This document shows, piece by piece, positions 34,909 through 36,401 of a stretch of 37,320 nt of DNA (position 1 is the stretch's first letter; each line of letters starts with the position of its first letter). The stretch is taken from IMG/VR virus record IMGVR_UViG_2617270964_000016, positions 1-37,320 of that record. One strand, written 5' to 3'. This DNA is from a virus (taxonomy: Duplodnaviria > Heunggongvirae > Uroviricota > Caudoviricetes). The notes below the pieces were generated by a model. The model made no database searches, was not told the origin of the DNA, and saw only the letters and a list, made by a program, of their open reading frames with translations. The position numbers and the translations under genes were made by a program.

Positions 34909-35541
34909 ATGCATCGTATAGACACAAAAACCGCGCAGAAGGATAAGTTCGGCGCGGGTAAGAACGGTTTTACCCGTGGTAACCCCCAGACCGGCACGCC
35001 AGCCACCGATCTGGATGATGACTACTTTGACATGTTGCAGGAGGAACTTTGCAGCGTGGTGGAGGCATCCGGTGCCAGCCTGGAGAAGGGGCGGCATGAC
35101 CAGCTGCTTACAGCGCTTCGTGCGCTGCTGTTAAGCCGCAAGAATCCGTTTGGTGATATCAAATCGGATGGCACGGTGAAAACGGCTCTCGAAAACCTTG
35201 ATTTGGGAGAGTTGGCCTTGGCAGGGGTAATGACAGGCCTTTTTGATACCAATGGCTATCTGAAACTCCCAGCAATTATTGATGGCAAGCGAAAAATTTT
35301 GATATTTCAATGGATGTCCATTTCAGCCAGTGCCACACCATCTTATTACAATTTACCTATCGCATGGCCAACCAGAGGGCTACATGCATTTGCTGTTGCT
35401 CAAACGGGGATTGATCAGTCAACCACTGCCTCTGCATTTATTGAAACTTCCTTGGTTAATCAACAAGTTTTTGTTAAGTGTATTAACTCTGCTGGGGCAT
35501 TACAATCCCGTGGTGTTAGTTTATTTATGATTGGTATGTGA
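34909..35541 (+). CDS. Tail fibre protein (conserved N-terminal baseplate-attachment domain, AT-rich variable C-terminus)
   Basis: N-terminus MHRIDTKTAQKDKFGAGKNGFTRGNPQTGTPATDLDDDYFDMLQEEL... typical of Mu/e14-type fibres. GC content drops sharply from about 35270. Confidence 0.65.
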   Translation: MHRIDTKTAQKDKFGAGKNGFTRGNPQTGTPATDLDDDYFDMLQEELCSVVEASGASLEKGRHDQLLTALRALLLSRKNPFGDIKSDGTVKTALENLDLGELALAGVMTGLFDTNGYLKLPAIIDGKRKILIFQWMSISASATPSYYNLPIAWPTRGLHAFAVAQTGIDQSTTASAFIETSLVNQQVFVKCINSAGALQSRGVSLFMIGM

Positions 35542-35549
35542 GAACAAAA

Positions 35550-35942
35550 ATGGATATTTCCTATAAATTCGCTAATGGCGTATTTTACCCCAGCGATATT
35601 GAATATAAATCGATTCCAGAGAGTGCGATTGATGTTACCTATGAAGAATATGCTAAAGCCATGAGACGTCCGACAGGTTATAATTTTACGGTGGACAAAG
35701 AAGGTATAGTAACGCTGATTGAACATGTAATTTCAGAAGAAGAGTGGAAACTGGACATAGAGGCGCAACTTGCATTATTACGACAGAGGGCTGATAACGA
35801 AATAGGATGGCGGCAATATGCAGTTGAAAGAGGTAAAGCGACGGAAGAAGAAGTAGTTGCCTTAATTAAATGGCAGGATTACAAGTTAGAGTTAATGCGA
35901 GTAGATACATCAAACCCAGTATTGCCTACCATCCCTGAATAA
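35550..35942 (+). CDS. Tail fibre assembly chaperone (Tfa)
   Basis: ATG 35550 (MDISYKFANGVFYPS...). C-terminal ...VVALIKWQDYKLELMRVDTSNPVLP... resembles the Tfa C-terminal signature. Follows the fibre gene. Confidence 0.6.
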   Translation: MDISYKFANGVFYPSDIEYKSIPESAIDVTYEEYAKAMRRPTGYNFTVDKEGIVTLIEHVISEEEWKLDIEAQLALLRQRADNEIGWRQYAVERGKATEEEVVALIKWQDYKLELMRVDTSNPVLPTIPE

Positions 35943-35950
35943 GATTATTC

Positions 35951-35978
35951 CCCTCTATCGCGCAATAACGATAGAGGG
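35951..35978. terminator. Hairpin between convergent genes (10-bp perfect stem CCCTCTATCG/CGATAGAGGG, 8-nt loop)
   Basis: Seen directly, 9 nt after the Tfa stop and 6 nt before the stop of the convergent minus-strand ORF. Confidence 0.45.
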
Positions 35979-35983
35979 ATTTA

Positions 35984-36391
35984 TCATCTCATTCTCTTGA
36001 TAATAAAACCAAGTAATATGACAAATTGAACCAGAGAGCACAGGATTGAGAAATGGAGATACCTATAGTCAGATGCAGGGCTGACGAAGAAGTGAGGCAC
36101 TGCAAATATGAAGCATGAGACGCCCAGCAACAAGCCTATACATTTTATACTGCTTCTGACAAAAATAAATGAAATTGTTGATACCAGAGCAAGAAGTAAA
36201 TAAATCCATGGCAAGTAAATATAAGGCATAGATTTTACTGTTTCCACATATAAAGAGCTTGCCTTATTCGGTGTGAATGAGAACCCCCATTGGTTTTCAA
36301 CACTTCCTTCCTGCACGACCCATGCTGGAGTGCTACTACCAACCCTAAGCAATTCATTGAATGTGTCCAATCTTACTTTTAAGTAAGACAA
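35984..36391 (-). pseudogene. AT-rich membrane-protein gene, probably the 3' remnant of a gene truncated by the adjacent IS insertion (possible O-antigen-modification/lysogenic-conversion gene)
   Basis: 135-codon ORF in AT-rich DNA with C-terminal TM helices. The only in-frame start is a TTG at 36389-36391, and the frame stays open upstream into the IS terminus with no credible ATG/Shine-Dalgarno. Confidence 0.35.
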
Positions 36392-36401
36392 TGGGTTATT
36401 C

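What the first reader, a model, noticed from the sequence alone, without database searches (positions are those of the whole stretch)
35270..36401. AT-rich host-range/conversion region: variable fibre tip and Tfa followed by a convergent membrane-protein gene disrupted by an IS; no invertase
GC content falls sharply in the C-terminal half of the tail fibre and stays low through the Tfa and the convergent minus-strand ORF (35984-36391). That ORF has membrane-protein character but no credible start: its frame runs open into the IS2-like terminus at about 36402. This is the expected signature of an IS insertion into a larger membrane-protein gene. By position (distal to the tail fibres, convergent orientation, low GC) the disrupted gene could have been an O-antigen-modifying (Gtr-type glucosyltransferase or acyltransferase) lysogenic-conversion gene, or an invertible fibre segment partner. 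The expected DNA invertase of e14/Mu-like fibre cassettes is absent.
Basis: inference. Interest (0 to 1): 0.55.

Follow-up and report, generated by a model that had tools for sequence, protein, structure and literature searches.

The report
IS-broken prophage O-antigen glycosyltransferase gene
The minus-strand ORF is the last third of a 438-residue prophage membrane glycosyltransferase gene, most likely an O-antigen modifier, that an ISEc48 insertion has cut and inactivated; the event is an ordinary gene loss, but the enzyme family has not been characterised.

Summary
GC falls from 0.52 to 0.39 across 35270-36401. That stretch covers the swapped C-terminal tip of a short tail fibre, its assembly chaperone (Tfa), a terminator hairpin and a convergent ORF with no usable start.

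The ORF is codons 301-438 of a 438-aa gene that is intact at this position in many E. coli prophages. A 1336-bp ISEc48 (IS3 family, IS2 group) begins at 36402, inside codon 300. I predicted the far-side product for a simple insertion with a 15-bp duplication: residues 1-305 plus ELAP. A deposited 309-aa E. coli protein matches it exactly.

The layout copies phage SfV's fibre-Tfa-terminator-gtrV, but without gtrA/gtrB and without sequence homology to GtrV. There is no invertase, no inverted repeats and no acyltransferase domain. The window copy lacks the invariant D38, K124/D125 and D231, so it is a pseudogene.

The parts
34909..35541 (+). Short tail fibre, 210 aa. The N-terminal ~75-105 residues are the conserved baseplate-attachment part. 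From about 35134 (residue 76, SRKNPFGD...) it is a low-GC, exchangeable receptor-binding tip.
   Evidence: PHROG tail-fibre families match residues 1-105 only. There is a weak Gp53-like_C hit at residues 131-209. Window 35134-35936 is 86% identical in DNA to a different prophage (L002), whose fibre has an unrelated N-terminus.
35550..35942 (+). Tail fibre assembly protein (Tfa), 130 aa
   Evidence: Pfam Caudo_TAP E=2.4e-13; phrog_188. The exact protein is listed in 405 blocks of the public assembly collection.
35951..35978 (.). 10-bp-stem hairpin between the convergent Tfa and GT-C genes; likely a shared terminator
   Evidence: Terminator scan. SfV has an annotated rho-independent terminator at the equivalent place.
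35984..36401 (-). 3' remnant of a 438-codon GT-C glycosyltransferase gene. It holds the stop codon (35984-35986), codons 301-438 (35987-36400) and the last base of codon K300. It is a pseudogene.
   Evidence: Identical to the intact allele L012:10435-11751 apart from 2 SNPs. The intact protein was reconstructed from L001 and is present in L012-L020.
36387..36401 (.). Near-side copy of the 15-bp target-site duplication (GACAATGGGTTATTC on the + strand)
   Evidence: Two other ISEc48 copies have 15-bp duplications. P0069 repeats residues N301-S305 before reading into the IS end.
36402..37320 (-). ISEc48 (IS3 family, IS2 group). The terminal inverted repeat starts at 36402 (TG...). orfB runs on the minus strand from 36439 and off the window end. 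919 of 1336 bp are in the window.
   Evidence: 100% identity to ISEc48 copies. Ends and length come from L021/L022. rve/HTH_21 domains. NCBIfam IS3 family equivalog 207 bits, above its 160-bit cutoff.

Best explanation
What the region is. 35270-36401 is the host-range and lysogenic-conversion end of an SfV-like prophage with a lambdoid early region and a Mu-like tail. It contains an exchangeable fibre tip, its Tfa and a terminator hairpin. These are followed by a convergent gene for a 438-aa inner-membrane GT-C glycosyltransferase.

How the intact enzyme most likely works (inferred). In a lysogen it takes a monosaccharide from an undecaprenyl-phosphate-linked donor on the periplasmic face. It transfers the sugar onto completed O-antigen as a side branch. 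That changes the serotype and the phage receptor, as GtrC does.

How it differs from Gtr systems. The prophage brings only the transferase. The donor synthase (GT2) and flippase (SMR-type) would have to come from the host. The probable source is the gnd-ugd side-branch module of O101/O162-type strains, which encodes a 45%-identical paralogue.

What happened in this window. ISEc48 inserted in codon 300 with a 15-bp duplication. It separated the catalytic N-terminal two thirds (invariant D38/S39, K124/D125, D231) from the remnant seen here. The remnant has no start codon, so the conversion function is lost.
For: Shown:
- The junction is at 36401/36402, and the remnant is identical to the intact allele.
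- The gene is intact at 438 aa at the same position in L012, L013 and L016-L020, followed by dinI and prfC.
- The far-side product predicted in advance, residues 1-305 plus ELAP (309 aa), is found exactly as EYD79281.1/P0069.
- D38 is invariant in the PGWMSxDS motif just after TM1. K124/D125, D231 and DYRYL 411-415 are also invariant across 58 homologues.
- 19 of 58 homologues carry an N-terminal PF00535 GT2 domain. That domain is 66% identical (E=4e-117) to the separate 270-aa GT2 encoded next to paralogue P0009. Its best NCBIfam matches are polyprenyl-phosphate hexose transferases (AglJ, DPhHx transferase, ArnC, PpgS). The neighbouring 118-aa protein is ArnF/SMR-like.
- SfV has the same gene order, with gtrV in this slot.

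Co-occurrence:
- The only complete E. coli genome with the prophage gene (1 of 5426) is also one of only 6 that carry the gnd-ugd module.
- GCA_012117455.1 carries both genes.
- Three further pairings show up in the accession and locus-tag lists: locus-tag prefix AWE03, accessions HBA993xxxx, and a shared 4,986,153-bp contig.
Against: - No biochemical data exist for any member of the family.
- The acceptor (O-antigen) and the sugar are inferred only from context.
- The far side of the IS in the window's own genome is not visible. The 5' part is documented in one strain's protein record, not in DNA I could read.
- The co-occurrence with the O162 module could reflect shared clonal descent, or phage host range, rather than donor dependence.
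- There is no sequence homology to characterised GtrC proteins.
- The family is absent from 50,697 sequenced phage genomes.
- The simple scan found no convincing promoter upstream of the intact gene.
Confidence: 0.8

Rival explanations
1. ISEc48 did not simply insert. An IS-mediated adjacent deletion or rearrangement removed the 5' two thirds of the gene and possibly dinI/attR, so nothing matching lies beyond the IS in this genome.
For: The window ends inside the IS, so the far side is unseen. Junction patterns were not found in genome contigs or metagenome contigs.
Against: P0069 is exactly the product expected of the far junction of a simple insertion at this nucleotide, with a 15-bp duplication. 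An independent event at the same base is improbable.
Confidence: 0.07
2. The intact protein is a GT-C enzyme that uses a generic host donor, such as UndP-glucose from a resident gtrAB (for example CPS-53 yfdGH), like an orphan gtrC. The link to O162-type strains would then reflect only the phage's host range.
For: gtrA/gtrB are known to be interchangeable between Gtr systems (established knowledge; summarised in PMC11194591). The position is the same as gtrV in SfV. 78% and 74% homologues occur in another phage type and in a chromosomal island, with no GT2 among the genes called in the sequence read.
Against: Within this family the partner GT2, whether fused or adjacent, is a distinct soluble-type 270-aa clade and not GtrB. 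It is more conserved (66%) than the GT-C part (about 35%), which points to a family-specific donor. Co-occurrence with that module was seen in at least five assemblies.
Confidence: 0.25
3. The gene is not a transferase acting on O-antigen. It could be a GT-C-fold protein acting on another periplasmic acceptor (enterobacterial common antigen, capsule, lipid A/core or a protein), or a non-enzymatic superinfection-exclusion membrane protein.
Against: Paralogue P0009 and the fused P0037 lie inside O-antigen gene clusters. The gene sits in the classical O-antigen-conversion slot next to the receptor-binding fibre tip. Invariant acidic residues argue for catalysis.
Confidence: 0.12
4. The region is an invertible fibre cassette (Mu G, e14 P or P1 C type) whose invertase has been lost, and the minus-strand ORF is the alternative fibre or Tfa partner.
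For: The ORF is convergent and lies right after fibre and Tfa genes. Prophage e14 shares ymf genes with this phage group.
Against: No inverted repeats flank the fibre tip. There is no invertase homologue. The ORF is a polytopic membrane protein with a GT-C fold, not a fibre or Tfa. Intact loci go straight on to dinI and prfC.
Confidence: 0.01

Closest known systems
GtrV (gtrC-type serotype-specific glucosyltransferase) of Shigella phage SfV, and Gtr three-component O-antigen glucosylation in general
   Same: The phage architecture and slot are the same: Mu-like baseplate genes gp45-48, short fibre, Tfa, terminator, then a convergent polytopic membrane transferase of about 420-440 aa. Neither protein has a Pfam hit. 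The inferred periplasmic, polyprenyl-phosphate-sugar-dependent chemistry is also the same.
   Different: There is no detectable sequence homology (hhalign probability 0.25%). The prophage has no gtrA or gtrB, and dinI and attR follow instead. The partner GT2 of this family is a 270-aa soluble-type enzyme, not GtrB.
The 'hypothetical protein' of the six-gene gnd-ugd block of E. coli O162, proposed but untested for the 4-deoxy-D-arabino-hexose side branch (Liu et al. 2020, PMC7685785) = P0009
   Same: It is 45% identical over the full length, shares the invariant residues and occurs in the same genomes.
   Different: P0009 is chromosomal and directly follows its SMR flippase and GT2. The window's gene is prophage-borne and alone. 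It may target another acceptor position.
GT-C glycosyltransferases with solved structures (Pmt1/2/4, ALG12/9/3, ArnT, AftB, PglB/AglB)
   Different: Sequence identity is 7-12%. The protein is smaller, and its periplasmic helical domain is inserted between TM segments rather than forming a large C-terminal domain.
Pentofuranose three-component systems (Kelly et al. 2024, PMC11127046) and Klebsiella/Gram-positive GT2 + flippase + GT-C systems
   Same: The logic is the same: lipid-linked monosaccharide synthase, small flippase and GT-C adding side branches after polymerisation, including onto ABC-transporter-dependent O-antigens.
   Different: The donor chemistry and the protein families differ. 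Here the transferase alone has been captured by a phage.
ISEc48 (IS3 family, IS2 group)
   Same: 100% identical over the 918 bp compared (36403-37320), with TG...CA ends.
   Different: Nothing differs. It is a bona fide copy. The 15-bp target duplication is longer than the 5 bp made by the IS2 copy in L001.

Membership tests
GT-C glycosyltransferase superfamily | Polytopic membrane fold shared with PMT, ALG, ArnT and STT3 | tested here: met
GT-C glycosyltransferase superfamily | Conserved acidic residue in the first extracytoplasmic loop | tested here: met
   D38 is invariant in 58 sequences. It lies directly after TM1 (helix 11-30), at the start of helix 37-48. The window remnant lacks it.
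GT-C glycosyltransferase superfamily | Uses a polyprenyl-phosphate-linked sugar donor | not testable with these tools
   Inferred from 19 of 58 homologues fused to, and P0009 adjacent to, a polyprenyl-phosphate-hexose-synthase-like GT2 plus an SMR flippase.
Gtr (GtrA/GtrB/GtrC) phage O-antigen glucosylation cluster | gtrA flippase and gtrB UndP-glucose synthase encoded next to the specific transferase | tested here: not met
   Neither gene is in the window (tblastn with GT2 and SMR proxies), in the annotated sister prophage or in intact loci.
Gtr (GtrA/GtrB/GtrC) phage O-antigen glucosylation cluster | Specific transferase located distal to the tail fibre/Tfa genes, convergent, at the prophage end | tested here: met
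   The order is the same as SfV orf21-orf22-terminator-gtrV.
Gtr (GtrA/GtrB/GtrC) phage O-antigen glucosylation cluster | Sequence relationship to a characterised GtrC | tested here: not met
   hhalign of the family profile against GtrV gives probability 0.25%. Only GtrV was tested. GtrC proteins are notoriously diverse, so this weighs little.
O-antigen acyltransferase (Oac/OafA, AT3) | Acyl_transf_3 (PF01757) domain | tested here: not met
   The 438-aa protein has no Pfam hit at E<=10. The positive control L002 gene gives PF01757 at 3e-32 plus SGNH.
Invertible tail-fibre segment (Mu G/Gin, e14 P/Pin) | Serine invertase gene and inverted crossover sites flanking alternative fibre C-termini | tested here: not met
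   No inverted repeats of 12 nt or more bracket the fibre tip and Tfa. Gin tblastn finds nothing. The minus-strand ORF is not fibre-like.
ISEc48 | Near-identity to reference copies, a terminal inverted repeat at the junction, and a target duplication | tested here: met
   100% over the 918 bp compared. The terminus TGTTCTTGCCCCC lies at 36402. The duplication is inferred from P0069, because the far end is outside the window.
O162 gnd-ugd module GT-C (P0009 family) | Full-length homology with the invariant motif set | tested here: met
   45% identity over 95% coverage, E=3.5e-120. The invariant columns are shared.

The most novel reading that the evidence does not exclude
The prophage carries a stand-alone GT-C transferase that feeds on a lipid-linked sugar made by the host's own O-antigen side-branch module. 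In O101/O162-type E. coli that module is SMR flippase + 270-aa GT2 + on-lipid sugar-editing oxidoreductases, and the sugar may be UndP-4-deoxy-D-arabino-hexose. The phage enzyme would add the sugar at a new position. This would be serotype conversion by donor piracy, restricted to hosts of one O-group, and repeatedly lost through IS insertions and nonsense mutations. It would also assign the first function to a Pfam-less GT-C family of more than 5000 clusters at 50% identity.
Probability: 0.35. Interest if true: 0.65.

Novelty: new member of a known kind. Interest (0 to 1): 0.4.

Why it matters
The window feature itself is a dead gene, so its direct importance is small.

Its value is as a pointer to three things:
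- It identifies an unannotated GT-C family: 8312 cluster representatives at E<=1e-3, with no Pfam, NCBIfam or PHROG model.
- It gives a concrete, testable three-component hypothesis for the unsolved genetics of the O162 4-deoxy-hexose side branch.
- It shows a phage carrying only the acceptor-specific enzyme of such a system.

O101/O162 strains are clinically relevant and are vaccine targets (PMC13168486). Prophage-driven and IS-driven on/off variation of a side branch would therefore matter for serotyping and for glycoconjugate vaccine design.

Tried and rejected
- Pfam, NCBIfam and PHROG scans of the remnant and of the reconstructed 438-aa protein gave nothing.
- An exact look-up of the 135-aa ORF product found no record.
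- Four exact-pattern scans for the near and far IS junctions in genome contigs and metagenome contigs gave 0 hits, so the window's source genome was not recovered.
- tblastn of the intact protein against 50,697 phage genomes found no match.
- Foldseek against BFVD gave no phage GtrC-like hit.
- hhalign against GtrV showed no homology.
- Promoter scans were uninformative.
- The acyltransferase and invertible-segment readings were rejected; see the membership tests.
- Literature searches found no paper describing this family or the O162 side-branch genes beyond the proposal in PMC7685785.

Full report
**Observation**

GC is 0.391 for 35270-36401, against 0.516 upstream and 0.509 in the IS. The fall begins inside the tail-fibre gene: 0.544 for 34909-35250 and 0.399 for 35251-35541.

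The genes are:
- a 210-aa short tail fibre, 34909-35541 (+);
- a Caudo_TAP tail fibre assembly protein, 35550-35942 (+);
- a 10-bp-stem hairpin, 35951-35978;
- a convergent ORF, 35984-36391 (-).

The ORF's only 'start' is a TTG, and its frame stays open to at least 36469.

**The ORF is a remnant**

E. coli 2017.17.03CC (NZ_AP027829.1, locus L001) carries the same prophage end at 99.3% identity. There the gene is interrupted by a true IS2 at the window-equivalent position 36210, with a CCATG duplication, and continues upstream. Removing IS2 and one duplication copy gives a 438-codon ORF.

That ORF is intact and identical in many draft genomes (L012, L013, L016-L020). In all of them it lies directly after the Tfa and is followed by about 630 bp, then dinI and prfC.

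The window matches this allele up to 36401/36402, with two SNPs (36160, giving I381V, and 36305). The break is in codon K300, so the window keeps N301-R438.

**The IS**

Positions 36403-37320 are 100% identical to ISEc48. Two other copies (L021, L022) define a 1336-bp element with TG...CA ends and 15-bp target duplications. The window's copy starts at 36402. Its orfB carries rve and HTH_21 domains and scores below the IS2-specific cutoff, so it is an IS2 relative and not IS2.

**The far side**

The window ends inside the IS. Pattern scans of two public collections for either junction found nothing.

From the 15-bp duplication rule I predicted the far junction of a simple insertion. It should encode residues 1-305, then read into the IS end as E-L-A-P-stop, giving 309 aa. 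The 90% identity cluster of the protein contains exactly that sequence: P0069, EYD79281.1, E. coli 1-176-05_S3_C1, 309 aa, ending ...KNNPLSELAP.

So the 5' part exists beyond the IS in at least that strain. Residues N301-S305 are present on both sides. I could not fetch the DNA.

**What the gene encodes**

The 438-aa protein hits no Pfam, NCBIfam or PHROG model. A word-indexed search found 58 homologues. A full profile search found 8312 cluster representatives at E<=1e-3 and 5060 at E<=1e-10. Only sub-threshold PMT_2 and DUF6020 hits appear in distant members.

Invariant residues are P32, G33, D38, S39, P56, G72, K124, D125, D231, W295, Y306, R310, F399, D411, R413, Y414 and L415. D38 sits just after TM1, where GT-C enzymes carry their catalytic acid. 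That placement rests on the model's helices and on established GT-C knowledge. The window remnant retains only Y306, R310, F399 and the DYRYL motif, so it cannot be active.

**Donor logic**

Nineteen of the 58 homologues are proteins of about 715 aa with an N-terminal PF00535 GT2 domain.

Paralogue P0009 (45% identical) lies in the E. coli O-antigen region between gnd and ugd. It comes immediately after a 118-aa ArnF/SMR-like protein and a 270-aa GT2. That GT2 is 66% identical (E=4e-117) to the GT2 domain of the fused Plesiomonas protein P0037. P0037 sits in the same conserved module. The GT2's best named relatives are polyprenyl-phosphate hexose transferases.

Gene fusion together with conserved neighbourhood is standard evidence that the two activities form one pathway. 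Here that pathway is a synthase, flippase and GT-C three-component system of the kind reviewed in PMC11194591 and PMC11127046.

**Link to O162**

The host of L001 has an O89/O101/O162-family wzm/wzt cluster. Strain 2012C-4221, which carries the same module, is O162:H6 (PMC10608928).

O162 differs from O101 by a 4-deoxy-D-arabino-hexose side branch. The genes between gnd and ugd were proposed for it but never tested (PMC7685785; PMC13168486).

The module occurs in 6 of 5426 complete genomes, and the prophage gene in 1 of 5426. That one genome has both. GCA_012117455.1 also has both. Accession and locus-tag coincidences point to three more assemblies with both.

This supports a functional or host-range link but does not prove one. 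Clonal descent has not been excluded.

**Comparison with known systems**

Phage SfV has the same order: Mu-like gp45-48, short fibre, Tfa, terminator, then convergent gtrV-gtrB-gtrA and int. The window's gene occupies the gtrV slot. The differences are:
- gtrA and gtrB are absent;
- the family profile shows no homology to GtrV;
- no sequenced phage genome encodes a homologue.

A 78% homologue follows the Tfa of a different myovirus (L009).

The same fibre tip and Tfa occur in a third prophage type, at 86% DNA identity. The fibre tip itself is nearly identical at protein level from residue 76 on. There they are followed by an AT3+SGNH acyltransferase instead. So the region is a modular host-range and conversion cassette.

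No invertase or inverted repeats are present.

**Recurrent loss**

Independent inactivations seen at DNA level are:
- ISEc48 at K300 (this window);
- IS2 at W367 (L001);
- W63-stop (L015).

Cluster members P0064 and P0066 look like further truncations, but I did not check them at DNA level.

**Verdict**

The feature is an IS-inactivated lysogenic-conversion gene, which is an ordinary kind of event. The gene belongs to an uncharacterised GT-C family, and its likely dependence on a host side-branch module is a modestly novel and testable idea.

Noticed in passing
window 36387-36402; L021 and L022 (ISEc48 copies): ISEc48 makes 15-bp target-site duplications in all three insertions examined. That is unusually long for an IS3-family element; the IS2 copy in L001 made 5 bp. 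The two fully visible targets both contain a GTGCAT motif.
   Followed up: partly
L005 2992-9359 / L023 12228-18594 (gnd-ugd block of O101/O162-type E. coli); L024 (Plesiomonas): The conserved seven-gene block has, in order: FAD oxidoreductase, ArnC/GtrB-like 336-aa GT2, NAD(P) oxidoreductase, xylose-isomerase-like TIM barrel, SMR flippase, 270-aa GT2 and GT-C. The oxidoreductase pair recalls DprE1/DprE2-type editing of a lipid-linked sugar and could make the 4-deoxy-hexose on the carrier lipid. The two GT2 genes are unexplained.
   Followed up: partly
window 35134-35936 versus L002 4935-5737: The fibre C-terminal tip and the Tfa form a cassette shared at 86% DNA identity with an argW-integrated prophage. 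That prophage has a different baseplate type (DUF2612), and PGAP mis-annotates its fibre as truncated although frame 0 is open.
   Followed up: partly
window 1-474 (+), 1387-1962 (-), 5727-6551 (-): Early-region accessory genes: a SocA/Panacea-domain antitoxin-like protein, an Rv2179c-like 3'-5' exoribonuclease and a DUF2303 protein.
   Followed up: no
L010 4665-8492 (sister prophage in NZ_AP027829.1): The related prophage carries the Dsr1 defence sirtuin next to its integrase. The window's left end differs (mosaic, no match for 1-4967).
   Followed up: no
L001 9611-9898 and the equivalent gap in L012-L020: A 288-bp fragment of another IS3-family transposase is fixed between the GT-C gene start and dinI in all loci. 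The gene's native promoter region is therefore itself IS-scarred.
   Followed up: no
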